Assembly (NCBI GenBank): GCA_001244265.2
Contig: CDLV01000004.1
Coordinates: 1,550,001 to 1,614,000 of the forward strand
From: Microbotryum violaceum
Lineage: Eukaryota
Direction: 5' to 3'
DNA: 64,000 nucleotides
Both the position numbers and the translations under genes were made by a program. Positions 456 to 54,188 of the stretch are shown in pieces (position 1 is the stretch's first letter; every line of letters starts with the position of its first letter). The notes beneath the pieces are model-generated. The model did no database searches. It was not told the origin of the DNA and worked only from the letters and a program-made list of their open reading frames with translations.

Positions 456-1880
456 CTAGGTCCCGCGGCGCGCTCCGCGCGCCACCTCACATTTTAAATC
501 AGCAGTTCTGTTACATTATTGCATATGGCTACGCTTCTACGCTGCTTTCGTCTATGTTTCGGGAGTTCTTGCAGGACTGGACAGAAGTTCCGAGCTTTGT
601 TCATCGGCAGCCCCACCTTGCCGTCGTTGCAACATGCCCTGAATACTGGAGTGTCCCGTCCTCCCGAGCGTTCAAAGTCCCAGTGGAAGGCGCTACACTT
701 CCGACACAGAAGATCCATTGCACCTAAGTCGTGTCGAGGGTAGGCTCCCGGCAGTGGACGCAGTGCAATCGGTGACTGTGCGGCGGGTGGATGTCGCCGT
801 GCGCGAACTGAACGCGCTTCCAGAGGTTCCGGACTGTGAGGTCGTCGCTGCGGGATAGAGTTAACATCGGGCGTTGGCTGGGGTGGAGACGTTTTTCCAA
901 CGGAATCATCTTGCCCTGATCTCCTGGAGGTGGACTGAGTCGTCGATGTTGACTTGGCAAAGGCATGGTCGGGCGGAAAACTGTGCGGGACCGGAACGGA
1001 ACGCTCTCGCTCAAGCCTTTCCCGTTGACGACGTCTTTGCTGACCTTGAGACCTTCGAGAGATCGCAGCGTTCACAGGCGGTGGATCCATTGGATGAATT
1101 TGATTTTCCGGCAGTGGAAGCAGTGCAATCGGTGACTGTGCGGCGACATCCACCGGGACAGAGTGGACATCGGGCGTTGGCTGGGGTGGAGGCGATTGAT
1201 CGATAGAATCATTTTGCTGCCTTTCCCTGCGTCTCCGCAATTGTTGTGCTCTAGATCTTCTGGCAGCAGAATGATACGTCGATGTTGATGCGGTAGAGGC
1301 AGGGTTCGGCGAAGAGCTGTGTGGGACCGGACCGGAACGCTCTCGCTCGAGCCTTTCCCGTTGACGATGTCGTTGCTGGCCTTCAGACCTCCGAGACGTC
1401 GTGCAACTATCAGTATTCTTGCTGTTGTCCATCTATATGGCTGTAAAGACTCACATTTAGTGTCCCATGAACCCGGAATCTCAACTGTACGAATTCAATT
1501 CTTCCGCTGTGTCACTGATGTCCATTGTCTGTTTTTCATATCAATTACCGTCATGCCTAACCATGTAACCATGTAACCATGTCAAGTCATAACTCACGCA
1601 TGCGAGGGTTGACATTCAAAGAAGACGTGTTGAAGGGAATTGCTGCTTGGTAGTTTCCCATTAGCTCCTGAACAATCCCACACCAAGAGCACAGTTCAAG
1701 AAGTTACTTACTCGAATTCGTAGCTATGTTGCATGCGGCAGGCATTTCTTGATCCCGTATTCGTTGCAGAGCTTCCACGACGACCGCTTCGGATGTCGGG
1801 AGCTCGAGGTGGCGATGGGATGAGGTGCGGTGGGTAAGGCGTGGAGAGCAGGAGGGAGAAAGATGGAGAAGCCACACTCG
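456..1880 (-). mobile_element. Non-autonomous Helitron copy A (3' end intact, 5' truncated)
   Basis: Minus-strand 3' terminus: hairpin GGCGCGC-gga-GCGCGCC (467-483) then CTAG|T at 456. Internal sequence is shared with copies at 34283-44429. Confidence 0.85.
494..1432 (-). pseudogene. Helitron RepHel N-terminal fragment (Arg/Gln repeats plus Zn-finger-like motif), truncated
   Basis: HDLGAMDLLCRKCSAFHWDFER...CCNDGKVGLP is the CxxC-H-W-E...CC-GKV motif of Helitron N-termini. RRSQGQQRRRQRERLERERS is repeated. Confidence 0.8.
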
Positions 1881-3249
1881 ACTTGGACAGCTTGCTCGCT
1901 CGACGACGTACACACCAATGCCGACACCTCGAGAAGATCAAGTTTAAAGGTGGCGCGCAGAACGTAGCGTCAGATCAACCCTTTGCCCAAACCGAACCGA
2001 GCACCGCGGCAACGTGCATTCTGCCGCACTTCGAAGGATAGTCGAGACAATGGGAATGGACAGGTATCGACAGTCTGTGGGGAACGAGAGGAACCTTCGC
2101 TTCAGGGGCAAATATCCGGGAGAAGACTTTGCACGAGCAAGCGACAACTGCGATCATCACCGAGGGACGATCTCACGTTAGTCGCTGATTCGTGATGTAT
2201 CATGACGCAAGCTGGGGCGTGCCTTTTCTTGCGCTCACATTTGACTCCGACACCACAGGAAAAAATGAAAGGACGACAAGAGGTCTATGGTCAGATAATG
2301 TCGAACCACGTACTCGTCCGAGCTGTTGATGGTGATGTGTCTGCACTCCGTTCTCTCAAGGTGGACACACTGGTCGTGTATGGAATCCCAGAAGAACCTA
2401 TGGGTTTGCCTTCGGGTGAACAATGCGGGGAACGACTGGCAATCGGGATAGGTATGCCAAACTACTACTTGTGTGGGGAAACTTCACATGACTGACTAGC
2501 ACCGTGACTGCGCATTTTACTTGTCACCTTCCCTGCAGTGAGGAACATTTACAAGAAGTTAAGCACAACTTATGAAAGTGTTGAAAGTCTTGACTCTCTT
2601 GCTCTTTTCGCAAATGCCGTGATACAAGAGCTGCGTGTCATCGCTCCGGGAGTTTACTCCAACCTGTCTCATCAGGCCAACACGCGCATTTGTCAAGTCG
2701 ATGGGCGCTGTATCATAAATTCGCTCAAACCGGACTTGTCAAGCATCAACTACGAGGTCAAGGATTCCACACGATCTAACTGGCGTGATGAAGGGGAAAT
2801 TCACATCACCGTCACTCAAGAACAACGGTACAGGCTTTTGCAGAACATTAAAGGAATTTGAGCAGCATCCCTTGCTTGTCTTGCACCAGGAGGCCGTTCA
2901 GACGAAGACGAAGAGCGTCAACAATGATGAAGAATGAAGGTCAGCCTGGCTCATGCTCGTATGTCGGTAAGCTTTGTCAGAGCTTGGCCCATCAAGTGCG
3001 GCAGTGGATCGCGGTGGGGCGGGTGTGGAGCAGAGCTAGCAGAGCGCTGGCGGCGCTCTTGGTGTGCGCGCGGCGCAGAAAAAATTCTGAGCATTGTAGA
3101 GCTTGGAGAGTAGTTTTCAAAAATTATTCAGCACTAGGCGACCCTCATATTTGGATATTTTCAGTCAAAATCTGGATTTTTTTTGGACATTCTGCCTCGA
3201 AAAAGGCCGTTTTTAGAGGGCCGCCTATGGCTGAGCTTTCGGGGGTCCT
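1881..3249 (+). mobile_element. Right portion of a Zisupton-like DNA transposon carrying an unknown gene
   Basis: Ends in GGCTGAGCTTTCGGGGGTCCT (3229-3249), the same TIR family as 20288, 24221, 32402-32422 and 53835. Left boundary is approximate. Confidence 0.65.
2202..2861 (+). CDS. Unknown transposon-borne protein (last exon about 2538-2861; upstream exons uncertain)
   Basis: ORF 2538-2861 follows an acceptor-like ccctgcag. Protein is clearly homologous to ORF 24956-25351 (NAVIQELRVI..YS, VDGRCIINSL.P, DE..I, EQRY..L..I.G). Confidence 0.55.
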
Positions 3250-17000: not shown

Positions 17001-20000
17001 CATAGCTCGTCGGACCTGTACTCCAGGTCGCACCTGAATGTCGGCCTGATCCCCCCCCTGCCTCATCTTCGTCGTCATCGTCGCCTTCATGGACCGAGTC
17101 GAGGAAGCTCATCCTACTCTCGGGTCGGTCCCCACTCGTGGCGCTCGATGCGGTCCTCGAGTGTCGGACTTTGAGGATGTCAGCATAGAGTCGATTGAGT
17201 TCGTCATCCTTGAGTTTGTCCAAATTGACGTGCTGACCATTGAGTCGAGCGACAACGGCTTCTCGCCGTGCGTAAGACCAGTCCGCCTCGGCCGTCGACA
17301 TGGGTGATTCAGGTCGGGTCCCTGCCGGCGAGCCCTTCGACCCCGCATCGTCAAATTCGTTACCGAGCGGGGATCGCAGTTGGTGTACGGCATCCCGAGC
17401 TTTCCGGACCTCTTCGGGATGGTTGAAGCGAAAGACGTGGAAGTCGCCGAGAATGATGCGGAATCCAGATCGGAGTTCCCTCGGTTGATCGACCGAAATC
17501 CGCCGACCGTTGACCATCGTCAGACTCCCCGGGAGGGTGTGCAATACAACTTTGCCATCGGGGGAGCTTTCGAAGAAGCAGTGCTCGGCCAAAATGTTAG
17601 AACCACTCAATCGGATGTCGGCCGCGACTTCGGATCCAAGGTTTCCGACCGTCGTCTTTCCCAGCTTGATCTGATAGATCAAACATTCGCTCATCAACGG
17701 GTCCTCGTTGAGGTTGACGAGATGCGGCAGCTTTTTGGGGGTATGGACCCCGACTTGATTCTTTTCGATCGTGATACCGAGCGCCTCCAAAGCCTGTTCG
17801 CGCTCCTTCTGCACCTCTTGCGTCCGTACGAGCTTCTCCTCCCACGTCTCGGTTACCGAGGCCATCAACTTTTCGCTCTGCTCCAGCTGATCCTGCAGTT
17901 CTGCTTTTGTGATTGTCTTGATCTCACCAGCTTGTGTCCGATACGACACAATCTGTTCCTCGGCGGGGATATCGGGATCGTAGGTCGCTTCGTTCGATGC
18001 GCCCGTCATCCGGGTTCGAAGCGTCGCTAGCTCCTCCTTGAGTTCACGGATGAGCCTGGCGTTCGGGTCCTCGTTGACCACGGCCTTGTTCTTGATCTTC
18101 TTAGCCTGGTCGGCATACCGAAGGGTCGACAAGGTCTCGTCGTAGTCGGCGGGGGATATGGCCGCCACCACTGGTTGATCAACACTATGTCAGCCCTGCG
18201 CACCTGGTCGTTGTAAACCCACCTCGATGACTCACTGGCCGTCTTCGAGTTGCCGCCTAATGAGTCCTTCAACAGCCACGTCAAGACCGAATCACGATAC
18301 GGCACTTTCTCACCCGCATGCTTCCCCACCCCGCTCGCGGCAGCCAGCGCCGCAATGACCCGCCCTAGAGTCGTTAAACTTTTGTTGATCAACGCGCCTT
18401 CCTTCAACCGCGTCCCCGTCGCGCCCGTAGAATTGGCTCGCTCTGATCCCGCGAGATCGACGAGTGAGATGCGCGATACTTTCTCCCCTGCCATTCCCGT
18501 CTCGACGTCGACGCGTCTTTGGGTCAACAGAAGGGTGAAAACAGCGTGGGATCGCGAAGATGTTTCGTTCATATTTGTTGCTGCAACCGTGCGGGCCTTT
18601 GTGTCATTGCGTCCGGAAACTGATTTTGTCAGTGCCTGCATGTCCTCATTCAGTATCGCCTCACTCACTTTGGTTCCCTCATCCATCAATGCCTCGATAT
18701 CCGGGAACGACTGAACAGCCAGCTTCGACAGCCCTTCGACATAGGGACCCAAGCTCGGATGTTCCCGTACCTTGAGGTTTCCCTTATTGCTTGGGTTGAG
18801 CAAATCGCGGACTTTTTCCTGGTAAATCTCGGTATAAGAGACCTACTCGGGCAGAGAAAGAACGCGTGTTAGCGTAAGGCACGACACGACGAGCGTGCTT
18901 GTTACGCACTTCGACGGTGAAGGAGAGATTGTCCGTTGAGAGGAACGTGATGCGTTCGAAAAGCGCCTCGCAAATGAGCGGGATAATTCCGCGATCGGAA
19001 CCGTAACCCATCATCGAATAAGATTTTCCTAGGCACGTGCCACCAAAGGATCAGTGTCAAGTCTCAACTGAATGCGACACCTCAATTCCGACTTGAGCTC
19101 ACCACTGCCAGTTTGACCGTCTGCAAGTGTGCGTGAAGCTCAGTTCTCTGCTCCAGGTTCTGCTCCTCGGTCGTCAAATGTGCGACTCACAGGCAAAGAT
19201 ACATGTGTTGAATCCCTGAAACGAGTGATCGAGCAGATCCTTTCCCAAGTCTTCGTACAGGGTCTGTTGCGACGCATATCCAGGTTCGTCTTTGGGCCCC
19301 GCCGACCTGTAGTGATAGAACCCGGCGGCCAGAGGAAGCAGATTGAGCTTTCCTTCCGAGCATGCGGAGGATTCGTGCAGCACGAAACGAAGATGAGTCT
19401 CTCACCAATACGACTTGTCGAAGGCAAAGGATTTGGTCTCCTTTTCTGCGTTGCGACTCGTACCGGTCGCCTAGCACACATGACGAATTTCGGCCATTAG
19501 CCTCGGACGCAGGCCACGTGAGCGCGATCCCCACCTCGGATGAACAGACGACCTACTTCGGGTGGATCCAAGTAGGTGTTGTTGCCTTCCATTCGCACCA
19601 GAGGTTTCGCACCCCTCGCGAGCTCTGTCCAAAGATTCAAGGTGACCTGCTGATGAGCCGCTGATCGGTGCCAAGCTCAAAGAGGAGTCTTCGTGCTGCC
19701 TTCTGTCATCCCAGAGAGGCTCTCCTTAGAAGCTCGGAAGGGGGTGGGGAACTGACCTCTGGAGTTGAGCGGTCGACATCGGACCTAGAAGATAGAATGA
19801 GGTGGTTAGTAAAGAATTATTGAAGAGGGTCTGGTGCTTCGTCGCGTGATGCAACGTGCGACCCGCTCGATCAAGGCTGGGATAATGTTGGCTCAACCCA
19901 TGCCCGACCTGGAATCGCGTCGCACGAGCGAGCTAGTGCATCGGCACAGGGTATTCGGAGTTTGAGTAAAGTGACAATAGATCTGCGTACGACTACTTTG

Positions 20001-20287: not shown

Positions 20288-21710
20288 AGGACCCGGGAAA
20301 GCTCAGCCCAATGAGGACCCCCGAAAGCCGGGCCCGTACCCATGTCGGGGGGTGGGGGGGAGGAGAGGAAAAGAAAAGAAAAGAAAAGGGAAAGGGAAAG
20401 AAAGAAAAAAAAAAAGGAGAAAAAGGAGGGGGAGGAAAAAAAAAAAAAAAAAGATCGGGAAAGGGAAAAATGGGGGGAAAAAGAGAAGAGGGAGGGGAAG
20501 AGAAAGAACTTGGAGAAAGAAGAAGAGGGAGGGGGAGGTGACAACATACTTCATATTACGCAGGTATTATACAGCTACAAAGTTGTGACACTTTTTTTGA
20601 TGCCGAGCTCGGCCATTCATCTCAGCCCTTGTCAGTCCTCTACAGAACCTTCGTGATTGTGGGTCGTTCGAATCTATCTCGTCTGTCAGCCCGAAAGGCT
20701 TCCCGAAGTCCAAGCACGCCCCGTCACACTCATTCACCGATCCGTCATCGCTTAGTTTTGACCCCTTGCGTCGACAAGTAGTTTGCCCACATAATCGACA
20801 GTGCCTTGCCCCTTCTGTGGTACCCGCGTGCGTCAAAGCGCTGCTCGTGCCCAAGTCCGCGCTCGAACCAGCGTCGCTCGAGGCAGTTGCAACAAAGGGG
20901 AGGATGGATGACGTTGGAGGATCCGAGAAATCGACTTCTACCTCTGTAAGCCTCCCCAAGACAGGCGGTTTGTGACGAGTAATGGCTTAGCCGCTAGCAT
21001 GCTAACATCACGACCGCGGGAGGGATCGGTAAGCAAAGCTTGAATCACTATGACGTCGTTCCCACCCATGTTCATTGTGGCTTGAGCATTTGCCAGCGAC
21101 GACCATCTCGGTGCCCATGTATTGATGTGCTCTGGCATCTGTGTGAGGATTGCGCTTCAGCTCAACATCACCATTCAGTGTGACACAGACGCGACATACT
21201 TTGTAAGAAATGTCTAGTCCGTTGGCATACTTGTTCCAAGGCTCGGTAATCTCGAATATCCGAAGATTTTGAGGCGCTCCCAGTCGTACCTTGCTTGAGA
21301 GATATCTGTATAGCGCTCGTTCGCTGGGTGTATGGACATACAATACAGCGAATCGAGTACCCTAACGTTCCGCTGGCCAATCGTGGCGAAGCTTGCGATC
21401 GGTTGGCAGCCGGCTTTGCATATGCTGTATCGCCGGCGTATTGTTTTGCAGCAAGTTTCGTGGCGACCACTTGACGGGCTTCAAACGCAGAGTCCCGCGC
21501 TCGACTTGATAGGGCTCGATCAAAAAGCGCATTTGCGCTGTTGGCGACTGAACAACAGGTACGATGCCGAATTCGCGAACTCAAGTGCGCCAACTCAAGT
21601 GCGCCAACTCAAGTGCGCTAACTCGGGCGCTCGACTGCGCCAACTCAAGCGCGCTAACTCAATTGCGCCAACTCAATTTGGCGCGCGCGAGTTAGCGCAA
21701 GCGCACCCCC
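20288..21710 (-). mobile_element. Zisupton-like element fragment, inverted near-identical copy of 3250-5680 with internal deletion
   Basis: TIR AGGACCCGGGAAAGCTCAGCC at 20288. 20540-21572 is the reverse complement of about 4476-5510, and ORF translations are identical or nearly so. Confidence 0.85.
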
Positions 21711-22629: not shown

Positions 22630-22735
22630 ACTTGGCTTTGGGCCCGTTTGCCTTCGCTTCGAAACGCGCTCGCGCTTGAACAAGTCACTAGCCATTTTCG
22701 ATAATCACTTTAGTTCAGTGGCTGTTAGAGAATAT
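22630..22735 (+). repeat. Fragment of Zisupton-like left subterminal arm
   Basis: TGGGCCCGTTTGCCTTCGCTTCGA..GTCACTAG..ACTTTAGTTCAG matches 24435-24880 and 54024-54092. Confidence 0.7.
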
Positions 22736-22792
22736 TAGGGTTTAGGTACCCCTATCAAGTAAAATAAAAATAAAAATAACCTCCCACTGAAA

Positions 22793-23572
22793 TGTCTGAG
22801 GAACGCTATCGACTCTGGAGCAAGATTGCTGTTCGGCGGTCTCGGATGCATTGCCTACCAGGATATGCTCACCATCCTGGGCGGACTGAAGTCGCGTCGT
22901 ACTCTGTCTCGCGCGTCGTGATGTGGTCGGGCGTGATCGTCAAGACGACAATGCAACACATGGGCATTCGCCAAGGCGACGCTCGAACTCGTAACCGAAC
23001 TCGCTGAAGACAAGAAACTCGACCCCGATGCCGTCGTATATCTCTTCCTATGTGGCGAGTTACACGATGCCATCCAGAACCCGTCGCTTCAGCCCCTTGT
23101 ATGAAGGTCCTCGCGGACAGGGAAGGTTCTAGACTATAGTGGGGACTATAATTTAGACAGGAATTGCGAGGGATCTCGGATAGGTCTGGTTGGGCCGAAG
23201 CAACTGAAGGCCAAGGATAGGGGGTGGATGAGGTGAGGTGCCGAGATGAGACTGGGTGAGGATTTAAGAGGAAAGGTTTTAGGCGGGGAGATTGAGAGTG
23301 AGAATGGGAGAGAATTGGAGTGAGAATGAGAGAGCGAGAGTTGTTGCTTGCAGGAAGGAAAGAAGCAACTTCAGAGAGGACCACTATTTATACAAATTCT
23401 GGAAAGACTAAAGGAATATTCGAAGGTATTTTGTGGTCCGATTGGTAAGCAAATAAATAAAAGGGGTCCGCACAATAATCCAGTATCGAGGGTGGTCACG
23501 TGAACACTTGCGCGGCGAGCCACTAGTCAGGTACGCGCGCTAAAGGTCCGCGCTCGGGAACGGCTCGTAACA
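22793..23572 (-). repeat. 3' LTR of a gypsy element (TG...CA, about 780 bp)
   Basis: Minus strand: purine tract AAGGAGGGGCGAC then TGTTACG, TATAAATAG at about 23385-23393, and end ...CTCAGACA. No partner LTR in the window, so the distal boundary is inferred. Confidence 0.65.
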
Positions 23573-24472
23573 GTCGCCCCTCCTTAAGGTCGAACTCCTG
23601 GTCGACTAATCACAATACTCGGACTTGATTGCGTCGCTCGAGTAAGGGCTGAAATCCCCGCGTCGAAACACGTGGCGATCCGGATCAAAGAAGCGATCCT
23701 TTTCGGAGGCGGTACCCGAGGAAGTCCCTGGAGTCGGCTGGCGCATCGCGGCGGGTGAGACGAGGTAGGCCTTGAGTGTGTTGTCATCTTCGCTAAGGTG
23801 AGTCCTCATGACCAAGCGAGGGTCCAGGCTGGGTTGTTGGGCCGTGGGTTGAAGTCTTTGGTTGCCCCGGTCCCGTAGTTGCGCCAGTGGAGTAACGTCG
23901 TTGGAGAGGGCGAAGCACTAGGTCACGTGTTCGGAGGGGAGTTGCGGCAACCGACCCGTCTTGTGGACCAGTTCCATATAGTCATGTTGTAACTCGGAGA
24001 CTTTTTCCGCATGGAGATCGATGGGACCACGGACGAGTGCTTGTAATAGGTGGTAGTACCTTGACCAAGGAGAAGGGAGGAGTCGAGCTCGATTTGCGTC
24101 GTGAAGCGCCTCCCAATTTATAATAATCGCGGATATGATGTAATGGTAACATGACATACTTCCAATAGATTTTTAAGAGTTCGAATCTCTTTTTGCGTAG
24201 TAATCCCAGGCGTGGTCACGAGGACCCCAGAAAGCCCAGCCGGAGGCGCATTTTTTATTTTTATTTTGACATTTTGAGGACTAAAAATCCCGAAAATCGT
24301 CGAGGCGCATTGCAAAAAATTGACATTTTGGGACGAAACACACGTTTTGCCCCCGAGGCGCATTTTCAAATTTTGACATTTTTCCCGTGGATCGACGCAA
24401 TTTTGGCCTACCCTGAGCAGCCTTCGGCATGACTTGGGCCCGTTCGCCTTCAAGACGCGCTGCGCGATGCTC

Positions 24473-24816
24473 CATAGCAAAAAACCACCCCTGAAATGGG
24501 ACGATCCCGGGATGATCCCGGGATCGGGCCCCGATTTGAAATCCCGCAGCGCATTTGAAATTTGAAATCGGCAGATTGAAATGCATTTGAAATCTCTGCC
24601 GATTTCAAAATGCATTTCAAATCACTCTGAGATCGCGCGCCGCGATTTGAAATGCATTTGAAATCGCTCTGGGATCGCGCGCCGCGATTTGGAATGCATT
24701 TGAAATCGGCGGAGCGATTTGAAATGCATTTAGAATCGCTCCGCCGATTTCAAATCGGGGCCCGATCTCGGAATGATCCCGGGATCGTCCCATTTCAGGG
24801 GTGGTTTTTTGCTATG
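24473..24816. mobile_element. 344-bp foldback MITE, CATAG...CTATG ends, 2-bp TSD (CMC/CACTA-like)
   Basis: ~70-bp TIRs CATAGCAAAAAACCACCCCTGAAATGGGACGATCCCGGGA. Internal ATTTGAAATGCATTTGAAATC repeats. TC duplicated at both flanks; empty site in the paralog at about 54061-54080. Confidence 0.9.
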
Positions 24817-24955
24817 TCGCCCCTGTACAGGTCACTAGTCATCTTTTGTAATTACTTTAGTTCAGCCGCTGTTAGCCAATAGTTGCCACCGCTGATATTG
24901 AAGGGGCCCAGGTTCCGCTTCACTTCGTTCTGACATTGAAGCATAGCTCGACAAC

Positions 24956-25351
24956 ATGATCCCTTGCTTGTTTCTCGACGAAGACCAGGACTACTATTTG
25001 AACGACGATGACTATGATCGATTATCGCCGCTTCTACTTTCAAATGTCGTTGTACAGGAGCTTCGCCTCATCAAGAAAGCAAGCTATTCCACTCACCTTA
25101 TTGATGGCACTATGCCGTTCCGCATGATTGATGGTCGACAGGTCATCGAGTCATTAGGCCCGCCAACGACTACAAATCGTTCAACCACTGACCCCACCTC
25201 ATGTTACCCCGACGAGCGCATAATCAGCACGTGCGCACATGCCGAGCAAAGATTTGCCGCACTTCGGAGCGTGCCCGGCCTGCGAGATGCCGCCGGTAGA
25301 ACCTCTACAAGCCGCACAAATGCCTCCGCGGATACAAGGAGCTCAAGTTAA
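24956..25351 (+). CDS. Unknown transposon-borne protein (131 aa; possibly 5'-truncated)
   Basis: Open frame inside the Zisupton-like element; homologous to ORF 2538-2861. Confidence 0.55.
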   Translation: MIPCLFLDEDQDYYLNDDDYDRLSPLLLSNVVVQELRLIKKASYSTHLIDGTMPFRMIDGRQVIESLGPPTTTNRSTTDPTSCYPDERIISTCAHAEQRFAALRSVPGLRDAAGRTSTSRTNASADTRSSS

Positions 25352-25388
25352 GCCAAACGGAGGTCTGACAACGAAGTAGCGAGCCCAT

Positions 25389-26207
25389 TAGGGCTGGGTC
25401 ACTAATAGGTGACATTAGTGACGTGACATTAGTGACCAATTAGTTACCAATTAGTGACAGGGGGGTCCCAGAAATCATTGTCACTAATGTCACTAAGTAC
25501 CTAGGTAGGTACTAGGTACCGGTCTAGACCCGGTCTACTTGCTTGTACCTGATGGCGACCCTGGAATGTGAATGACAAGTCTGGAATATTATTTACGAAA
25601 ATACCGGGTCACGACTCCGGCCACGCGCCTCTTAAGTTTTGATATGCTTCTTAGCCGGACTGTAGTGGGCTGTGGGCCGTGGGCCGTGGCACGCCGGTGG
25701 CCCTGCAGGCTGCCGTCGACTGGTCGGCCGACGCGTACGCTCTTGACGCGATAGTCCTCGCTTTGCCTCATGCCTTTCTCCGATTCCGTTCTATCTCGAC
25801 TATCCGCGTCCCAATAATCGAACCTCAAAGTGACAACCATGATCGTAGCCGATGTCAACGACTTAGTTGCAGCAGAAAAACGATATTCCGAAGATTACGA
25901 ATTAGACCCCTTCCTCAAGGCCTCTGAGGCCATCTTCGCCCGCGACCAAGAGATCGTTTCCATTCAGTTACATTAGTGACCAAATATTGGACGTAGTTAC
26001 ATTACATTAGTGACCAAGGATTGGACTTAGTGACATTAGTGACCAAGGATTGGACTTAGTGACATTAGTGACCAAATATTGGTTAGTGACATTAGTGACA
26101 GGCGAAAATCTGGTGACATAAGTGACAGTGACAATAATAAGTGACCGAGGGTCCGACTTTTGTCACCTATTAGTTACAGGGCCAAAACAATTAGTGACCC
26201 AGCCCTA
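25389..26207. mobile_element. hAT-type MITE, 819 bp
   Basis: TIRs TAGGGCTGGGTCACTAAT / ATTAGTGACCCAGCCCTA. 8-bp TSD GAGCCCAT (25381-25388, 26208-26215). Many subterminal TTAGTGAC(A) repeats. Confidence 0.93.
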
Positions 26208-26453
26208 GAGCCCATCAGCAAAGCAAGGAAGGCATGTTTGATGCCTGGAGCCACGCGCGACACCAGGCCGACGCGACGCGCGCCGCAAGCCACTTTCGAT
26301 CGGCCGCCGCGCACCCGCAAACGCTCGAAACGCGTTTTCGAGGACTTTTGAGCGATTTTTGGAGCATGTAGAACACATTTTGATAATATTTCAGAGGCGC
26401 ATGTGAAATTTTGACATTTTGGGGCCAAAATAGGGTAAAAAACTTTGACAAAA

Positions 26454-29400
26454 CCAGTGGGAACCCGTAAAATAACGGGAGGATGAAAATTAAATAGCAG
26501 AATCGAACGATATACTGTACATGAACTAAGCAGATGTTACAGTGAGATTCAAATAGCAGGATTATTAAACGGTTTACATTATCTCAGGGAAGGTAAAACA
26601 CACAATACAAAGGACAGCATCAAAACTACTCTCCATTCATTGCCCTGAGAACAGCGCAGAATACTGGGTTTGGGGTCGCAGTGGCTGCGGCTGCCGCTCG
26701 ATCAACGGCTTGTAGGTCGTCGTCATCATCGGCGGGGTCTCGAGAAGGCAGTAGCACCTTGATTCGATCAACACTCATGGCTCGAGACAATGCCACATAC
26801 AGCTGCCCATGAGTGAAGACGGGATGTAGGGAGAGATCGACACCAACACGATCGAGTGATTGACCTTGGGCTTTGTTGATCGTCATGGCCAAGGCAACTC
26901 GAAGCGGGAACTGGAGCCGGCGCATAGTGAAACCAAGTTGGCGACTGCTAGTCGCATTTGTCTCAAGTCGCACGCGAGGGATGAAGACCGTGGTGCCCGC
27001 TCGATCTCCGGTCAAGATGATGGCTTGAATGACTCGCGATCTTGCGTGCGACACGATCAGGCGGGTACCGTTGCAGAGGCCCGCACCTGGGTCCAAATTG
27101 CGAAGAAGAACGACCGGGATCCCTTCCTTGAGACGCAAGTGATGCGCGGGGAAGTTGGATGGGTTGATTGAATGTAGATGCTCTGGCGAAATCAGTTCAG
27201 GGGCCATTCCACCCCCAGTTTCGCCTGCCTCAACGACCTCGTCTGCGCTGCGATACTCGATGTAGTCGCCATTGAACTCTTCCAGCAGCTTGGCATTGAT
27301 GCAATCGACCGTTGCGTTGTGCGGAGCTAGGATTGCCTGGCGTGAGAACAGCTGAATCAGGTCTTCGAGGGACTCCTTGTTCACGGTCCTTAAACCGGGG
27401 TAGACAAAGTTGATCAACCCTTCGGCCGTTCTTTGACCGTCCGGAAGCAGCAGGTAATCAGGCAGCTGCGAAACGGATAGAAGGGGTCTTAGTGTCGGTT
27501 GGTTGGGTAAAAGAGGGGAGCCAAACGTACTGCAATCTTGTCGTATGGGTGCATGTTGGCAGTTCCATCTCCCACGGTGAGTAGCCATTCCGCAAAGTCG
27601 CGCGTTCGAGCCAATTGAGCCTCGTCCATCGCATCAGCGTTCGAGCTGAGACGCATGTTCTCGGTAAGTCGCAAGACACGAACGTCGCGCCAGAACTCTG
27701 CCTTGATGAGGGATGCATCGACGATTTGACCGGGAGTTCCTTTGGGAACGACAGGAAGGCACTGGCGAAAGTCCCCTACAAATTGGAGACCTCGTTAGCA
27801 TGCCGCTGTTCAGAGCGGAGGCGGAAGAGCCCAACTGACCCGCAAAGATTGTTGTCACCCCGCCGAAGTGCTCCTCGGTCTCTCGGAGATCACGCAGTAG
27901 ACGGTCGACAGCTTCCACCGCGAATCGATGCGCCATTGGGGCTTCATCCCAAATGATGAGCTTGGTGGTACGCAGCATCAGCGCGAGATCACTCTCCCTG
28001 TCGACTGGACACGTCGAGGTTGGCAAGGTGTCGAGTGGGATTCGAAAAGTTGAATGCGCCGTGTGTCCTCCCTTGAGAAGCAACGCCGCTACTCCGGACG
28101 ACGCCACCGCAATCGCTTGGTCGCCTCGAGCTCGCACAGTATCGAGAAGGGCATTTTCCACAAAAGTCTTGCCAGTACCCCCAGGTGCTAGCAGGAAAAA
28201 CACATGCTGCGGCCCAAGGTTGTTGTCGCGCATCTGATTGACGACGTCGAGCTCGACCGCGCGAAGAAACTCGTCAAATGCAATTTGTTGGTCGTGATTC
28301 AGACGGGCACGCGCCGCTTCGGAATCTTGCGCACATTGCTGGCGATCAAAACGCGGAAGCCGTTCCTCGAGACGATCAAATAGCCGCACTTCGTCCTCGG
28401 TCAGCTCGGGAAGATCAAAGAAGGCCAAAGTTCGATCGTTTGCCGCAAGAAGGAGACGAATCTTGTTGAGCGTCCACAGGCGGATGGTTTGATCGTTGAT
28501 GGGCACGTCTTCATAGCGTTCGATGTGATAACGGGCATCGTCACTAAGGGAAGCGAAGTGACGATCCAGCAAAGCTGGCGGCTTGGCAACCGTCGCATGG
28601 ATAAGCATGAACACGAACAATCGGCGTAGTTGGTCACCGGTCTTAATCTGCGCAGCTTCCCCAAGACAGATGTGATGCTCACCATCGTCGGGGAGAAGTC
28701 CGCGAGCGGCGCAAGCCGCGCGGTACGAAGGATACACGGCGTCTTCAAACTTGAGCAGATCCGCAAACGACGTGGGACCCATGACAACCTCGAGGAGCAG
28801 TCTGAGGTAAAAGCGCTCCCCACTACGCAGTGAAACGGTGTAGATTCGGCCGGTGACATTGCGATCACAAACTCGGCGCTTCCAGCGCAGCTTCTCCTTA
28901 TTCCAGGAGTAGTAGCGGGGAACATTCGTGTACAGCAACGTGGCAGTAAGCTCGCCGTCAGGAGCCGCGGCGCACAGGTCGAAGAAGCCGGTCAATTTGG
29001 AGCGAGTGGGCGGAGTGTCGAGGGGTAGCGGTTCGTCGGGATTGATCTGCACAGATTGTTGATGCTCCAGATGGACCGGTAATCGATTGACAGGTGGCCA
29101 CACTCTACCGGTCGAGAATCCGAATAGGCGGTGGACCGCATCTGGAGCACTGATGTAGCGACCTTCGACGAACTCGTTGATCTCATCTCGAACCGGTTCC
29201 TCCTCGTGAGCCCCTTCACCGTTCGCTGCCCGCTCAACACGCGCCACAGCTCGGTCCGGACCTTTGTACACATACTTGAAGAGGTACTTGATCGCGCCGA
29301 TCGTCGTCACAGCCTCGACGTTGATATGCGCGTTGTAGTTGGCGGAGAGATAAGGCGTGTACGGCACGCAGTCACCATCGTTGTAGATGACACCCCCCTT

Positions 29401-32360
29401 GACGACGGCGTGGCGAAAGCGTCGGCGATACAATGGGTAGCCATCAGGGTGCATGCGGGTGGGGGTTCTGTTCGCGAGGAAAATGGCGCTTGCACCTCGG
29501 GTTACCGTACTTGTCCTTCTCCATGCAGGGCTAAGTCGAATTTCCGCCACACTTGCCATGCAGCATGTGCCTTGTGACGGTCTCGTGGAGATCAGGATAG
29601 CGCGAAGGATCGGGTATCTCGGCTGAGATCATCTTGTCGATTGCTTCCGTCGACAAAGGATGATCATCCGGAGCGAGGGTGATGAGGATATGGGCATGCG
29701 GCAGGCCCCGTTTTTGGTACTCGATGACGTGTGTATGCGTTAGAACGACGCCGAAACAGCCCGCACGTTGCTTGTTGCCAAAAACATCGTCGCAGAGTCG
29801 GTTCAACTTGGCTTGAAACACTCGTGCGATGAGATCCGGACAGTTGGTTGCTTGATCGTTCGGCCCGAGTGCAGCCTTGATTTCCGGCCATTCGGGTTGC
29901 ACGTCACCGTGATGAATAGCGAAGGCTTCCCATATTTGACGACGCACGCCATCACATCTCGGTAACGCTGTGTGACCTCCCGCGGGCTATTCTTGAACGT
30001 CGACCCCAATATCACCGAACGTCCGATTTGATCCGAGGTCAAACCGTTGGCAACGGCGTCGGTGATGCCCTGCGCCGCGGTGAGGCGCAAGTTTTCTTGA
30101 TGAAAGCGGATATAGTTAAGTCGATCGGTCTCCACTTGGGAGTATCCGTCGATTACAAACTCAAGGAAGAGACGCTGGGTGGCATGTGGGATTGAGAAGT
30201 AGGTGTCGCGTTCGTGCAAGTAGTATTCCAGATATTGAGAACGCGAGACTCGGGTTGATCCACCTCGACCCCTTTTGCTTGATCTTCGTCCTAGATTTTC
30301 GAACACCTCATGTCAGTCTCAGGGTGCGTCTCAACAGAGAGGTATGTGAGAATGAGCCGAAGATGCTTAGCTTACGTTCACCATCACCATTCTCATCGTC
30401 CTCCTCGTCATCTTCATCTTCATCGTCCTCCTCTTCGTCTTCTTCATCTGGACCAAGGCCGGCAAGTAGCTCGCGCAATTGGACACCATTGTCGATCTGC
30501 TCTCATTTTCTGGCGATGGGCGGCCCAGCTTGGTTGAAACCGCAAAGAGGAATGTTGGGGTGGAAGCCATCTTCCCCCGCGGGAAGAGTAGTGGGTACCG
30601 GAGAGGCATCGCAGACGGATGGAGCGAGCTAACGGTTTGGTACTTGGGCCGACCATCGGGACATCGATCACCGTGTACCTGGAGAATAAGGTCTTGCGGT
30701 CCACGATCTCCGGTGTTGGTGTCGGAATCGCAGATAAGCATCGCCATTTCCGTGCTTGACGTAGGAAGGTTGTGGGTGCGTCGGTCTCGGCCAGGTGGTA
30801 GACAGAGGCGCAGGACCCACTCTTTGGCTGTATCCCAACCCGCGCGGGCTTTGGCCGATGCGAACTCCCTCACAAAGCGATTGCCAGTGCGCAACATGGA
30901 CTCTAGCTTGGTCAGCGTTGAACTTTGTATGCGAGTCTCTGTGCTGTCGGGTCCTTGAAGTCGTGTGTTGGTGGCCTCGGCCGGGTCGATCAGCCATGTC
31001 TGGGCAAAGGCTGGGCGTTGATTCACGGCAGGGATCAGGGCACCGAGTCAATGATAGAGGCGGCCGAACACGCGAAACACGGGAGGTCCTAGAGTGCCCA
31101 CTTGGGTTTGGTCCCAGTGGGCAGCGAGCGAAGTAAAGGATAGTGCGTTGTTGTAAGACCGGGCATTCTCGCGGAATGCTTTAGCGTCTGTGTAGGTGCA
31201 TCACACAGTTCAGCATGTGGGCCATACTGCAGAGAGATGTTGTTGGGCGGAGCAACTGACCGCTATCCGAGCCTTCAAGAAGCTGCCGATACTCGAGATT
31301 GGGCTGGGGAGGGGGAGGTAGCCGCACCTTGCCCTGCGAGCAGCACGCGCCGAAGTGTCTGGTCGACTTGGACCTTTCGCACTCCCAGTGCCGAGCCTTA
31401 CAGTGGGTGCACACGGCCGTCTGGGGGCCGAGGTCGTCGCGGATCGAAACGTGGGGCTTGAGGGGTTTGAGCGCGATTCGAGCCCGGCGCACCCGCCTTT
31501 GCGGAGGTGGTGGTGGGGCGAGCCCAGCGTCGAGTTGGCCATCGCGCTAACCACGCTGTCCGTTCTGCACAGCTGCACGGCGGGCTCGTATACGTGTCGC
31601 AATGCCAAGATCGGTTGAATTGTTGTCATGACGCGCCGGGGGGCTGATTCTGTTGATCGGTGCGGGACGAAGAGGAGGGTCGAACCGCGGGGCGCCCAGC
31701 AGCGGGCGCTCGAGCAGGCCCATGGTACGCTGCCACCCTCGCGCCCAAGAACTTGGCGAGGTTGCGATGACCCTCCCTGGCGACCTTGGGACCGGGGCAT
31801 TACACAGTAGCGAAGGTTTGTTCTTGAATGAATGTCACTAAAATTAGATGAGAGTGTGAGGGAGAAAGGAAAGGTTCGAGGGAGTGGCACAGGATTATTT
31901 ACGTGGTTTGTTTTGTTGTTTAGCCCCTAATGCCGGTGATCGACTGCCGGACGGGCAATGACACGGCGGGCGCGCCGCATCACGTGACAAATGTTAGCCC
32001 TCGCCCCGCGCGTCAGCCGCCAGGCACCGGGCGGAGCTGTGCTGTAGAAGCAATGTCATGCAAAGCCACGCGCTTGCCGTCCATTAAATGCAATATAAGT
32101 GTAAGCATTGTTTGACGTCAACTGAAAAAGGAAAAAAAAAACTGGGAGCGCTGTAGCTTCGTTGGAACGGCGCGGAGAATACAAAAGTCACCACAGGGCT
32201 TGTACATGACTTCTGATCGGAACCCCGGCGCCACAGGCAGGTGCGGCAGACACAACAGTATGCTGGTGCATCCACCACAGGCGGCCCTCCGGGCCGCAAC
32301 CTAGTTAAAAACAGCGATTTTAGGTACATTCCTTAACTCACATTTTTATATATAGAGAGG
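26454..32360 (-). mobile_element. Near full-length Helitron (autonomous type, disrupted)
   Basis: 3' hairpin CCCGT-tatttt-ACGGG then CTGG|T at 26454. 5' end (CC)TCTCTATATATAAAAATG at about 32360. Inserted at A|T with no TSD. Confidence 0.88.
26626..31500 (-). pseudogene. Helitron RepHel: Zn finger, HUH Rep domain and Pif1 helicase, with introns and frameshifts
   Basis: CTHCKARHWECER..CCSQGKV; GKPSLFITVTCNP; IEYQKRGLPHAHIL; KYLFKYVYKG; PGGTGKT; IIWDEAPM; LCNGTRL; AMTINKAQGQS; HGQLYVALSR. Confidence 0.93.
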
Positions 32361-32752
32361 TAACAAAGGCCAAAAAAGGGCGTTTTTCCGCATGCGCCTC
32401 TGGCTGGGCTTTCTGGGGTCCTTGGTCACGCGACAGGACGTTGGCGATCAAAACGGTATTCAATACCGTTGATGCGGGAACGTGTATGATTCGTCTTGAT
32501 GGCATGTGAAGGGCGGTGTAAAGGTGGCCGCCGGAGACGTAAACAGTCCCAACTTGTAGCGCAGTGTTGACCGTGGTGTCAAAGAGCATGGTGATACTGG
32601 AATGAAGGTGGATAGTGAAAGGAAGTGCGGGGAAGTGATGAAGAGGAGAGAGAAAGAGAAACGGAAGTCGGAATTGAAGTTGTGGATGGTGGAGTCTTGG
32701 AATCAAAGGCGGAGTCCTGCCAGGAGTGGGTCACAATTCGACGAGCGCGTGA

Positions 32753-34277
32753 TCAATTGCAAGAGTTCCCTGGGGCGGGGCCGGCGGAAGCTTGATCGGA
32801 GTGTTCCCTGTTTCGGCCGCGGCGCTTTGCTGTTCCAGGAGTTATCCCCCCCTTTGAGAGCTGCGCTCCTGAGCGGCTTGAGACTCGCTGCGGGGCCGAT
32901 TTCGCGGCGCGAGGGTGCTGAATGTGGAATTGCTCAACGAGGTCGATGGCGTGATCAAGAATGTAGTCTCTAACCCATTGTGGATTTGTGTCTGAGAGAG
33001 GTCCACGCCATTGAACAAGATATTGGAGGACACCACTTCGAGAGCGAGAGTCGAGTATTGCCTCAATTTCGTGTTTGTCATTGCCGTCGATGATAGTGAC
33101 AGGAGGTGGTGGTCTGATGCGTCCTTCGATAGTTGATTCATGGTATTTCCACAAAAGCGAAACGTGTATGACGTTGTGGACGCGAAGGGAGGGCGGTAGT
33201 TCCAGGCGAAAAGCGGAGCGCCCAACAGGGCCAAGGATTTTGAAGGGTCCCAACCATTTGAAGTCAAGCTTCTTGGATTCGCGCACGGTTTCGATGTTCC
33301 CCGCACTTAGCCACACAAGGTCATCTCTCTTGAACTGGGGGTTCTTGTTCCTTGTCTTGTTATAGTTCCTTTTCATTTTGGATATCGTGGCAGCGAGGTC
33401 GTACCGCATAAGGGCATGCGTGTCTCGGAGCGTGTCGTAGTGGTTCGATGTGAATGTGTTTTGAGTTTTGCTGCTGTAGCTCGGAAGGGTGAGGTTGAGT
33501 GTAGGGTGATATCCGTAATTCGCGAAAAATGGGGTCTGTTTGGTGGACAAGTGTTTCATCGAATTGTAGGCAAATTGCGCGAGTGGGAGGAGATCTTCCC
33601 AGTCGCTCTGCCGATGGTTGGTGTAGAGACGGAGATATTGCTCAATAATTTGGTTGAGCCGTTCGGTTTGTCCGTCCGTTTGAGGGTGAAACGAAGTTGA
33701 AAGGTTGGTCTTGATGCGAGTGAGCTGGCAGAGACACTGCCAGAAGTCAGAAGTGAAGACCGAACCTCGGTCGGAAATGATGTCCTTAGGGAGTCCGTGA
33801 GAGGAGACAATGAAGCGGTAGAAGAGGTAGGCTATCACGAGTGCTGTAGCACCTTCTTCCTTGAAAGGAATGAAGTAGCCCATCTTGGTAAACGATCGAT
33901 GACGACGAAAATCGAATCGTTGCCTTGAACGATTTGGGTAGTTTGACATTGAAGTCCATGCCAATGGACTGCCAAGGGCCGTCGGGGATTGGTAGAGGTT
34001 GAAGGAGACCGTGGGGTCGGTCGCGACGAGTCTTGGACCGTTGGTATAGGTCGCATGTGGCGATGTAGTTGATGACGAATTGTTTGGCGTTTGGAAACCA
34101 GAACTCCCGCTTGATAAAGTCAAGTGTTTTCTCGATGCCGGGATGTCCTGCACTTGGTGCATCGTGGGTAGCTTTGAGGACGGCCAGTCGCGCTCGTGTA
34201 TCGTTGGGTACAAAAGGCTTGCCGTTACAGAGTGAGCAGTCTTTGTGGATCCCCCAACAATGGCGACCGAGTTTTCT
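32753..34277 (-). pseudogene. Ty3/gypsy chromovirus integrase plus chromodomain, 5' truncated
   Basis: [67 protein letters not shown]. One frameshift. Confidence 0.92.
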
Positions 34278-34282
34278 TGACG

Positions 34283-34770: not shown

Positions 34771-34782
34771 ACTACCTCTTTA

Positions 34783-43358: not shown

Positions 43359-43715
43359 GCCTTAGAGCGAGGGGGGGGGTGTTGAGTTGACACTTGAGTA
43401 CACTCTGCAGGCTACATGAGCACGAGCACGCGCGGGCTTTCTCTTAGCTTCCTTCTGATTCGAGCGTTCTAATGTATTGAACCGCCTCGAATCAGATCAG
43501 TAGTATTCACGGTATCATTGCAATAGTTAACTGAGCGTTCTAACATATTGAACTGCCTCGAATCAGACACCGAGATTCTAGAGAAGAAACAACTCGAGAG
43601 CTGTTCGGATGTCGCGAGCTCGAGGTGGCGATGGGATGAGGTGCGATGGGTAGGGTGTGAAGAGCAGGAGGGAGAAAGATGGAGAAGCCTGCGCCTCAGT
43701 TTAGACCGGACTCAT

Positions 43716-53834: not shown

Positions 53835-54092
53835 AGGACCCCAGAAAGCCCAGCCGGAGGCGCATTTTTTTTTTTGACCCAAAATCCTGAAAATCATCGA
53901 GGCGCATTTGACATTTTGGGACGAAACACCCGTTTTGCCCCCGAGGCGCCTTTGCAGGTTTTGACATGTTTCCCGTGGGTCGACGCAATTTTGGCCTACC
54001 CTGAGCAGCCTACGGCATGACTTTGGGCCCGTTCGCCTTCGCTTCGAGACGCGCGTCGCAATGCTCGCGCTTGTACAGGTCACTAGTCATTT
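53835..54092 (+). mobile_element. Left arm of a Zisupton-like element inserted in the LINE
   Basis: TIR AGGACCCCAGAAAGCCCAGCC and ~250 bp homologous to 24221-24845. Right end is not in the window (predicted TSD GATGGGTC). Confidence 0.85.
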
Positions 54093-54188
54093 CAACTCCT
54101 TCGTAGAGCGCGCGAGCGGAGCCAAGTTAGCAGTGAAGCCAGTCAAGTTGCAGGTTTGGGCTGAACCCGGCATCCCGTATTGTGTATG

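What the first reader, a model, noticed from the sequence alone, without database searches (positions are those of the whole stretch)
24956..25351. Unrecognised protein family at the same position in two divergent Zisupton-like transposons
Seen: ORF 24956-25351 and ORF 2538-2861 align along their length (LSNVVVQELRLI..SYS vs FANAVIQELRVI..VYS; IDGRQVIESLGP vs VDGRCIINSLKP; DERII...EQRFAALRSVPGL vs DEGEI...EQRYRLLQNIKGI). Their DNA is not obviously alike. Both run towards the right AGGACCC-type TIR and stop about 340-390 bp before it once nested inserts are removed. Known: fungal KDZ (Kyakuja-Dileera-Zisupton) elements carry accessory genes such as TET/JBP. Inference: this is an old, selected accessory gene of the family, not random cargo. 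I recognise no domain; an anti-silencing or transposition-helper role is speculation.
Basis: partly seen in the sequence, partly recalled or inferred. Interest (0 to 1): 0.75.

Follow-up and report, generated by a model that had tools for sequence, protein, structure and literature searches.

The report
Last exon of a transposase gene
The two look-alike reading frames are not a separate helper gene but the final coding piece of the transposon's own very long transposase gene, left behind in two broken copies of the element, which is the ordinary way such elements decay.

Summary
The two ORFs share 34% identity over 85 aa, have no DNA similarity, and each ends about 350-390 bp before an AGGACCCC-type right terminal inverted repeat (TIR).

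The interpretation does not hold. The peptide is the last coding exon of the element's single long gene. That gene encodes an N-terminal region, a Ulp1 (C48) protease, a Cys-rich region, a catalytic core and a C-terminal region of about 330 aa.

- **Copy B (24221-32422):** perfect 21-nt TIRs and an 8-bp target-site duplication (TSD), TGGTCACG. It is an internal-deletion derivative: its ORF joins the gene's N-terminal 26 aa in frame to the last ~105 aa.
- **Copy A (1872-3249):** cut off on its 5' side. Its ORF has no ATG and follows a phase-1 intron.
- **Complete relatives:** two metagenome elements of 6.4-6.7 kb have the same termini, 8-bp TSDs, the same gene order and an intron at the same place and phase. 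Their genes stop 269 and 321 bp before the right end.

The predicted core fold matches Drosophila P-element transposase. No KDZ/Zisupton Pfam model matches, so "Zisupton-like" is not supported. The C-terminal region remains without a recognised domain. Verdict: an ordinary non-autonomous remnant, of low interest.

The parts
24221..32422 (+). Copy B: non-autonomous element from TIR to TIR, carrying three nested insertions. The 8-bp TSD TGGTCACG lies at 24213-24220 and 32423-32430.
   Evidence: Identical 21-nt TIRs. TSD read and printed.
24221..24241 (+). Left TIR of copy B, AGGACCCCAGAAAGCCCAGCC. The similarity continues to about 30 nt.
32402..32422 (-). Right TIR of copy B.
24956..25351 (+). 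The flagged ORF (131 aa plus stop). It is a chimera: aa 1-26 correspond to residues 38-63 of the full-length protein P0004, and aa 24-131 correspond to residues 613-720 of P0001 (89% identity), which is the C-terminal last exon.
24477..24812 (.). Nested MITE flanked by TA. It splits the 5' coding start of copy B.
   Evidence: Inverted repeat I4. Sequence read.
25389..26207 (.). Nested non-autonomous element resembling hAT. Its TIR is TAGGGCTGGGTCACTAAT, and its 8-bp TSD GAGCCCAT lies at 25381-25388 and 26208-26215.
   Evidence: Read. The hAT assignment rests on recalled TIR and TSD habits only.
26454..32357 (-). Nested Helitron with approximate borders. It carries Helitron_like_N and PIF1 helicase ORFs with frame breaks.
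   Evidence: Pfam results. Ends read.
1872..3249 (+). Copy A: the 3' part of an element of a second lineage, cut at 1872 by another repeat.
   Evidence: tblastn with P0029 and P0004. Contigs of other genomes continue upstream of 1872 with sequence that encodes LEKGALYSV, as in P0029.
2539..2861 (+). Last exon of copy A, which is the second flagged ORF. It has no ATG.
2452..2538 (+). Intron of 87 nt, GT..AG, phase 1, inside a Val codon.
   Evidence: Sequence. An X3 contig that ends at 2451 runs on with TGAGGAACA, which is 2539-2547. Same place and phase as the L009 intron 7243-7294.
2178..2261 (+). Upstream intron of about 84 nt.
   Evidence: X3 contigs join 2177 to 2262/2263 at depth 1012 and 159. 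P0029 reads across it.
3229..3249 (-). Right TIR of copy A, AGGACCCCCGAAAGCTCAGCC.
22632..23099 (+). Fragment of a further lineage-B copy. It holds P0004 residues 1-37 joined to residues 1002-1085, and has no TIR.
53835..54095 (+). 5' end of a third lineage-B copy: TIR plus the first 25 codons, then interrupted.

Best explanation
[quoted passage not shown] The family has AGGACCCC-type TIRs and makes 8-bp target-site duplications.

A complete element is about 6.4-6.7 kb. It encodes a multi-exon protein of roughly 1,400-1,800 aa, in this order:
- an N-terminal region;
- a Ulp1 (C48) protease;
- a Cys-rich region;
- a P-element-like RNase H catalytic core;
- a C-terminal region of about 330-450 aa.

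The last exon of that gene ends 260-390 bp before the right terminus.

Copy B in the window lost the middle of the gene, about codons 64 to 1534 in P0004 numbering. The first 26 residues are therefore fused in frame to the last ~105. Copy A is cut off on its 5' side and keeps only the last exons.

Both keep this exon because it sits next to the right end, and every copy that can still be mobilised must keep its ends.

**Shown:** the homology, the anatomy, the TIRs and TSD, the intron, the deletion junction and the fold of the core.

**Inferred:**
- The deletion arose by interrupted gap repair after excision, as is established for Ac/Ds and P/KP elements.
- The short ORFs have no function of their own.
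- In the full-length protein, the C-terminal region serves transposase assembly or binding of the DNA ends.
For: 1. **Full-length relatives.** A search with ORF B for longer proteins gave 28 hits at E <= 0.01 among 477 candidates, all from Microbotryum silenes-dioicae or M. saponariae, 249-1662 aa long. P0004 (1662 aa) begins with the first 26 aa of ORF B and ends with the rest.

2. **Pattern of loss.** Of 36 homologs found with the ORF, 0 keep the core, 21 keep part of the N-terminus and 29 keep the upstream C region. That is the pattern of internal deletions with many different breakpoints. The window's junction SPLLLSN occurs in 0 of 51 fetched proteins.

3. **Copy A is an exon, not a gene.** P0029 residues 333-589 map collinearly to 1871-2934. 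The ORF has no Met. A GT..AG intron precedes it, and its splicing is seen in contigs of run X3.

4. **The same C-terminus in a third lineage.** P0043 (1375 aa) carries it behind the core in one protein. The tree gives three clades with support 100/100, 99/95 and 96/94.

5. **Complete relatives in metagenome contigs.**
   - 35 metagenome loci encode relatives of the core.
   - L009 1270-7925 and L003 4345-10720 are complete elements with AGGACCCC.GAAA termini and 8-bp TSDs, GTGCCCCT and TTTGACAG.
   - 10 of the 35 loci show such a terminus.
   - In these loci the order Ulp1, core, C-terminal region is collinear on one strand.
   - In six of them the stop lies 261-352 bp before the right end, against 388 and about 348 bp in the window.

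6. **Homology of the C-terminal region beyond Microbotryum.**
   - A profile-profile comparison (hhalign) of the Microbotryum C-terminal region with that of the metagenome/Agaricomycete relatives gives probability 79.6%, E 1.5e-5, over 183 columns.
   - The reversed control gives E 0.56.
   - The L009 intron 7243-7294 splits a Val codon in phase 1 just before VLAFYSK. The window intron 2452-2538 does the same before VRNIYKK.

7. **Fold of the core.**
   - The AlphaFold2 model has pLDDT 71.4 and pTM 0.71.
   - The only two Foldseek matches in the PDB with E <= 0.001 are Drosophila P-element transposase. 6p5a_A gives E 2e-4, probability 1.00, TM 0.44/0.45 over 340 columns; the other is 6pe2_A.
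   - The Atlas feature search also gave P/THAP9-like clusters at 0.95.
Against: - No full-length genomic copy from the window's own genome could be read, because no genome is held. Within Microbotryum, continuity of core and C-terminus therefore rests on predicted proteins.
- Three of the four long lineage-B models (P0040, P0041, P0042) end before the last exon. All four are out of frame across two catalytic motifs.
- The metagenome relatives are not clean ORFs. L003 has 5 in-frame stops in 7274-9253, and L019 has 5.
- For the last exon alone, the profile match to distant relatives is weak: P 0.009 over 33 columns.
- Run X3 is only guessed to be RNA, and one of the two splice observations rests on 9 letters.
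- ORF B is in frame and intact, which a decaying remnant need not be. About one deletion in three would be in frame by chance.
Confidence: 0.88

Rival explanations
1. One reading: a separate, selected accessory gene (ORF2) sits in front of the right TIR in this transposon family, and gene predictors wrongly fused it to the transposase.
For: - No domain is recognised.
- The region is conserved in three lineages.
- The gene models are predictions, and several long ones stop before this region.
Against: - ORF A has no ATG and continues upstream through introns that are spliced in X3 contigs.
- Sequence conservation runs without a break from the core into this region. P0043 917-1321 aligns with P0004 1167-1583 at 46% identity.
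- In L009 the open frames follow each other without a gap: 5035-6498, 6483-7280, 7189-7653.
- ORF B borrows its ATG from the N-terminal exon of the long gene.
- Annotations of five species give one protein.
Confidence: 0.05
2. The short N-plus-C fusion protein of copy B, and those of the amplified deletion derivatives, is functional. It would act as a trans-acting regulator of transposition, like the KP repressor of P elements.
For: - ORF B is intact and in frame.
- Many deletion derivatives keep the N-terminus and the C-terminal region as open frames.
- The core is P-like, and KP-type repressors are known for P elements (recalled).
Against: - ORF B keeps only about the last third of the C-terminal region, so a folded domain is unlikely to be whole.
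- Its junction is unique among 51 proteins, so this form did not amplify.
- Its upstream start region is split by a MITE.
- Gene predictors report only open frames, so the count is biased towards them.
Confidence: 0.06
3. A host gene or domesticated gene that happens to lie in both places.
For: None found.
Against: - Dozens of paralogs per Microbotryum genome, with breakpoints typical of transposons.
- It lies inside TIR/TSD-bounded units.
Confidence: 0.01

Closest known systems
Internally deleted non-autonomous DNA transposons (Ds from Ac, KP and other deleted P elements)
   Same: Both termini and the adjacent first and last coding pieces are kept, and the middle of the transposase gene is lost. 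There are many independent breakpoints.
   Different: The parent element is a fungal family fused to Ulp1. No copy with this particular breakpoint was seen elsewhere.
P element / THAP9 transposases (P superfamily)
   Same: - 8-bp TSD.
- The modelled core matches 6p5a/6pe2 best.
- The nearest named Atlas clusters carry TNP-like RNase H/GBD families.
- One member of 16 gives a sub-threshold TNP-like_RNaseH_N hit, E 0.12.
   Different: - No TNP-like, Tnp_P_element or THAP Pfam model reaches significance.
- There is an N-terminal Ulp1 protease and a C-terminal extension of 330-450 aa.
- TM is only 0.44, and the model lacks the first strands of the fold.
Zisupton / KDZ transposons
   Same: - 8-bp TSD (Kojima 2025, PMC12730594, passages read).
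- TIRs, occurrence in Basidiomycota, and Cys clusters visible by eye.
- A Ulp1 SUMO-protease domain in the founding fish Zisupton. This is recalled from Bohne et al. 2012, which is not held.
   Different: - KDZ_trans and the CxC domains define KDZ in current annotation (preprint 10.1101/2025.05.19.654958 and PMC12062965, passages read).
- Neither is found in any of the 8 core-bearing proteins, nor in any of the 16 rows of alignment A4, which overlaps that set.
- No solved KDZ structure exists to compare with.
Ulp1-carrying Mutator-like elements of plants (KI-MULEs; recalled)
   Same: A C48 protease is carried by a DNA transposon.
   Different: There the protease is a separate gene, and the transposase is MuDR-type with 9-bp TSDs. 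Not tested here.

Membership tests
Internal-deletion derivative of an autonomous DNA transposon | Both TIRs present, with a target-site duplication | tested here: met
   Copy B has identical 21-nt TIRs at 24221 and 32422 and the 8-bp TSD TGGTCACG. Copy A has only its right TIR.
Internal-deletion derivative of an autonomous DNA transposon | Coding sequence collinear with the ends of a full-length gene, with the middle missing | tested here: met
   ORF B aa 1-26 correspond to P0004 38-63, and aa 24-131 correspond to P0001 613-720. tblastn map.
Internal-deletion derivative of an autonomous DNA transposon | Full-length elements of the same family exist | tested here: met
   Proteins of 1375-1765 aa occur in Microbotryum. 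Complete elements of 6.4-6.7 kb, L009 and L003, have the same termini. A full-length DNA copy in the same genome could not be sought.
Separate accessory gene of the transposon | Own start codon and a transcript independent of the transposase gene | tested here: not met
   ORF A has no ATG. It is joined to upstream exons through introns. ORF B's ATG belongs to the N-terminal exon of the long gene.
KDZ / Zisupton superfamily | KDZ transposase domain (Pfam KDZ_trans) | tested here: not met
   No hit in any of the 8 core-bearing proteins at E <= 10, or E <= 1 for P0004. No hit in any of the 16 rows of alignment A4 at E <= 1; six of those rows are among the eight.
KDZ / Zisupton superfamily | CxC zinc-chelating domains | tested here: not met
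   No CxC Pfam model matches in the same calls. Cys clusters are visible by eye in P0004 and P0043.
KDZ / Zisupton superfamily | 8-bp TSD and TIRs | tested here: met
   These features are shared with the P and hAT superfamilies, so they do not discriminate.
P superfamily | Catalytic core with the fold of P-element transposase | tested here: met
   6p5a_A: E 2e-4, probability 1.00, TM 0.44/0.45, 340 columns. 6pe2_A: E 3.5e-4. The next match is Hermes (hAT), E 0.018, TM 0.20. The model has pLDDT 71.4.
P superfamily | Sequence match to the TNP-like / Tnp_P_element families and a THAP domain | tested here: not met
   Only 1 of 16 members gives TNP-like_RNaseH_N, at E 0.12. There are no THAP or Tnp_P_element hits. 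The PDB sequence-profile searches find only Ulp1/SENP.
P superfamily | 8-bp TSD | tested here: met
Ulp1 / C48 protease domain | Pfam Peptidase_C48 above its cut-off | tested here: met
   P0004 23.4 bits, P0045 29.2, P0050 25.4 and P0051 23.5, against a cut-off of 20.7. P0044 and P0048 fall below it. The profile against PDB 1euv gives E 1e-10.

The most novel reading that the evidence does not exclude
The C-terminal region of 330-450 aa is a new conserved domain of a Ulp1-fused, P-element-like transposase lineage spread through Basidiomycota. In this reading, the small N-plus-C proteins encoded by its deletion derivatives act as trans-dominant regulators of the family, comparable to KP repressors.
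Probability: 0.07. Interest if true: 0.5.

Novelty: new member of a known kind. Interest (0 to 1): 0.22.

Why it matters
For the finding as stated, little changes. It removes a supposed new accessory gene and replaces it with the standard decay product of a DNA transposon.

Three by-products are useful for annotation:
- **A defined family.** It has AGGACCCC termini, 8-bp TSDs and one long gene with a Ulp1 protease, a P-like core and a long C-terminal region. Its core and C-terminal region are invisible to Pfam, so its many fragments are annotated as hypothetical proteins in Microbotryum genomes.
- **A structural hint.** P-like transposases fused to a SUMO-type protease occur in Basidiomycota.
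- **A warning.** TSD length and a Ulp1 domain alone do not place an element in Zisupton/KDZ.

Tried and rejected
- **Own genome:** none is held, so copy number and linkage in the same genome could not be scored.
- **Earlier notes of this scan:** nothing found.
- **Pfam on both ORFs and on 29 C-terminal homologs:** nothing consistent.
- **PDB profile of the C-terminal alignment:** 0 hits.
- **Atlas on the C-terminal region:** no usable hit.
- **Representative search with the two-ORF profile:** 14 hits at E <= 0.001. Of the 12 I looked at, 11 are Microbotryum-like fragments and one (P0038) is an unrelated repeat protein; P0035 and P0039 were never read.
- **hhalign of the Microbotryum C-terminal profile against the single protein P0050:** E 0.37.
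- **HMM score against shuffles:** 3.3 bits, and 7 of 2000 shuffles reached it. This was only weak; significance came after the relatives were turned into a profile.
- **AlphaFold2 of the C-terminal region (P0002, alignment A5):** pLDDT 42.9, pTM 0.22. This is too poor to search with, so no fold search was run on it.
- **Complex prediction, two copies of residues 45-220 of P0002:** 'no answer', score 0.00, with the partner's own fold uncertain. It says nothing either way.
- **The look-up of sequencing runs:** no RNA holder listed. All RNA labels are guesses.
- **dN/dS between A and B:** dS is saturated, so only codon-position identities can be given.
- **dN/dS among close copies:** not possible without their DNA.
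- **Empty-site paralog of copy B's insertion site:** none in the window.
- **Viral-contig scan:** no relative.
- **Papers:** Bohne 2012 and Iyer 2014 are not held. What I say of them is recalled.
- **Literature searches.** None of the following returned anything describing this family in the held library: Zisupton+Ulp1, Zisupton+SUMO protease and Peptidase_C48+transposase+Basidiomycota (0 papers each), and Ulp1+transposase+fungi+P element (3 unrelated papers). Repbase could not be searched, so I make no claim that the family is undescribed.
- **Supplements:** none were opened. The TE libraries of the Microbotryum papers may already hold this family.

Full report
**Observation**

The two reading frames exist. 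One runs stop-to-stop 24947-25351 with its ATG at 24956, and the other runs 2508-2861. They align at 29 of 85 residues, E 9e-12. In a six-frame search of the whole window each finds only the other, at E 3e-9 to 5e-9. Their DNA is not alike: the best blastn match is 13 nt, E 0.039.

The 7-mer AGGACCC is not remarkable on its own: 14 matches against 7.5 expected. The 21-mer AGGACCCCNGAAAGCNCAGCC is: six matches against 0.05 expected. The pair at 24221(+) and 32422(-) is identical over 21 nt and is flanked by the 8-bp direct repeat TGGTCACG. The window is a repeat-rich stretch of a fungal genome. Its closest proteins are from Microbotryum species.

**Anatomy of the right-hand copy (B, 24221-32422)**

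Three nested insertions account for most of its 8.2 kb:
- a TA-flanked MITE at 24477-24812 (I4);
- an 819-bp element at 25389-26207, with TAGGGCTGG... termini and the 8-bp duplication GAGCCCAT;
- a Helitron on the minus strand at about 26454-32357, with Helitron_like_N and PIF1 ORFs.

Without them the element is only about 1.2 kb, and the flagged ORF is its only sizeable frame.

**What the ORF is**

A search for longer proteins returned 28 hits at E <= 0.01 among 477 candidates. All are from M. silenes-dioicae or M. saponariae and are 249-1662 aa long.

P0004 (1662 aa) starts ...MIPCLFLDEDQDYYL.DD.DRLSPL and ends with ...LLSNVVVQELR...IDGRQVIESLGP.... ORF B aa 1-26 equal P0004 38-63. ORF B aa 24-131 equal P0001 613-720 at 89% identity. 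The ORF is therefore a fusion of the first and last pieces of one long gene, with about 1,470 codons missing.

Two other fragments of the same lineage lie in the window. At 22632-23099, residues 1-37 are joined to residues 1002-1085. At 53835-54095 there is a TIR plus the first 25 codons.

Of the 36 homologs found with the ORF, none keeps the core, 21 keep part of the N-terminus and 29 keep the upstream C-terminal region. The breakpoints are many and different. The window's own junction occurs in none of 51 fetched proteins.

**The left-hand copy (A)**

- P0029 (589 aa, itself a deletion form of a second lineage) maps collinearly to 1871-2934.
- P0004 1456-1609 maps to 2256-2825.
- ORF 2508-2861 has no methionine.
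- It is preceded by an 87-nt GT..AG intron, 2452-2538. Removing it gives ...LAIGI-V-RNIYKK..., which matches ...LSIGI-V-RYIYSK... in the other lineages.

Contigs of run X3 (labelled RNA by guess only) support the exon structure:
- One contig ends at 2451 at depth 1567 and runs on with TGAGGAACA, the first nine bases after the intron.
- Unspliced contigs have depth 19-28.
- The same run joins 2177 to 2262/2263.

Contigs of two runs continue upstream of 1872 with sequence that encodes the next residues of P0029. Copy A is therefore cut at 1872 by another repeat.

**The full-length gene and its relatives**

Long Microbotryum proteins (P0004, P0040-P0043, P0045) carry Peptidase_C48. Their profile against PDB 1euv gives E 1e-10. 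They also carry a conserved core with the blocks DDTK, xDG..E, D.KH..K..RN, DRQDDNA and E..EH.F. P0043, of a third lineage, has the same C-terminus behind that core in one protein. The C-terminal sequences fall into three well-supported clades, with the two window copies in different ones.

Agaricomycete proteins P0050 and P0051 share 27% identity over about 800 aa.

A scan of metagenome contigs gave 35 loci:
- L009 1270-7925 and L003 4345-10720 are complete elements. Both start with AGGACCCC.GAAA... and have 8-bp duplications, GTGCCCCT and TTTGACAG.
- Ten of the 35 loci show such a terminus.
- The order Ulp1, core, C-terminal region is collinear on one strand.
- The frames carry introns, and in some loci stop codons.
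- In six loci the gene stops 261-352 bp before the right end, against 388 and about 348 bp in the window. 'Same position' is thus a property of the whole family's single gene.

**Is the C-terminal region the same in these distant relatives?**
- Against the single protein P0050 the answer was not significant: E 0.37, and 7 of 2000 shuffles reached its score.
- Profile against profile, it is supported: probability 79.6%, E 1.5e-5, over 183 columns running into the start of the flagged exon. The reversed control gives 0.56.
- For the last exon alone the match is weak: P 0.009 over 33 columns.
- Independent support comes from gene structure. L009 has a 52-nt GT..CTAAC..AG intron at 7243-7294 that splits a Val codon in phase 1 just before VLAFYSK. 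The window intron does the same before VRNIYKK.

**Selection**

Between A and B, codon positions 1 and 2 keep 47% and 51% identity, while position 3 is at 29%. dN is 0.81 and dS is saturated. The region has therefore long been kept as protein, which fits its being part of a working transposase. Nothing can be said about the short window ORFs themselves.

**Superfamily**

- No KDZ_trans or CxC model matches any of the 8 core-bearing proteins, nor any of the 16 rows of alignment A4, which re-scans six of them plus ten translated loci.
- No TNP-like model matches either, except one hit at E 0.12.
- The Atlas feature search put P/THAP9-like clusters nearest, at 0.95.
- An AlphaFold2 model of the core of L009 has pLDDT 71.4 and pTM 0.71.
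- That model has only two PDB matches at E <= 0.001, both Drosophila P-element transposase. 6p5a_A gives E 2e-4, TM 0.44/0.45 over 340 columns. Hermes follows at E 0.018 and TM 0.20.
- P elements also make 8-bp duplications (recalled).
- Repbase lists P elements in Pucciniales (Muszewska 2017, PMC5751038, passages read).

I therefore file the core as P-like, with two caveats: TM is moderate, and no KDZ structure exists for comparison. The Ulp1 domain and the 8-bp TSD that recall Zisupton do not discriminate. The Zisupton features are recalled from Bohne 2012, which is not held. The 8-bp TSD is from Kojima 2025, PMC12730594, abstract and passages read.

**What remains open**

The function of the C-terminal region is unknown:
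- its model was too poor to use (pLDDT 42.9);
- the sequence libraries are silent.

My mechanism for it, transposase assembly or end binding, is inference only.

The four long lineage-B gene models are out of frame across two catalytic blocks, as is the window fragment at 22745-23099. Lineage B may therefore depend on another lineage for movement. This was not followed up.

**Verdict**

Interest is low.

Noticed in passing
window 3250-5661 and 20437-21709: Inverted duplication: arms of 1034 nt at 99%, plus 111-nt and 73-nt arms, with a 1.1-kb insertion in the left arm. It encloses about 15 kb that holds a kinesin-3-like gene (14725-18189, minus strand) and other ORFs. The outer ends carry 14-nt tandem repeats (AACTCAAGTGCGCC) and abut the right TIR of copy A at 3249/3250. 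No TSD was seen at the outer ends.
   Followed up: partly
window 26454-32357 (-): Helitron nested in copy B. Its Rep and PIF1 helicase are split over at least four frames (29803-30312, 29531-29986, 27634-29628, 26626-27633), so it is probably degenerate. A putative 3' hairpin plus CTGG lies at about 26454-26480. The borders are approximate.
   Followed up: partly
protein P0046 (M. silenes-dioicae): A gene model there merges the lineage-A last exon with a Helitron protein. A Helitron thus sits next to the 3' end of such an element in another genome too. This may be chance or a preferred target; I did not test it.
   Followed up: no
proteins P0004, P0040-P0042; window 22745-23099: The long lineage-B gene models are out of frame across the DRQDDNA and E..EH.F blocks, and the window fragment shows the same shift. 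Possibly no autonomous lineage-B copy exists, and another lineage mobilises it.
   Followed up: partly
window 20288-20334: Two degenerate left-TIR-like sequences lie 26 nt apart on the + strand, followed by a purine-rich tract. No partner end or coding remnant was found.
   Followed up: no
window 25389-26207: An 819-bp non-autonomous element with TAGGGCTGGGTCACTAAT termini, many internal TTAGTGAC repeats and an 8-bp TSD. It resembles hAT by recalled habits only.
   Followed up: no
window 54683-62763: Two adjacent Ty3-type retrotransposon copies, 77-86% alike at a spacing of about 3807 nt, inserted just after the 5' end of the third copy of the TIR element.
   Followed up: no
window 1-1872, 34264-38716, 43570-43719: A shared repeat family, 56-93% alike with internal 336-nt periodicity, ends exactly at 1872 where copy A is cut. 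It is probably LTR-related, but I did not classify it.
   Followed up: no
L009 1270-7925; L003 4345-10720: Complete elements of the same family, 6.4-6.7 kb, in metagenome contigs. They are useful as references for annotating this family. Pfam sees nothing in their individual ORFs.
   Followed up: partly
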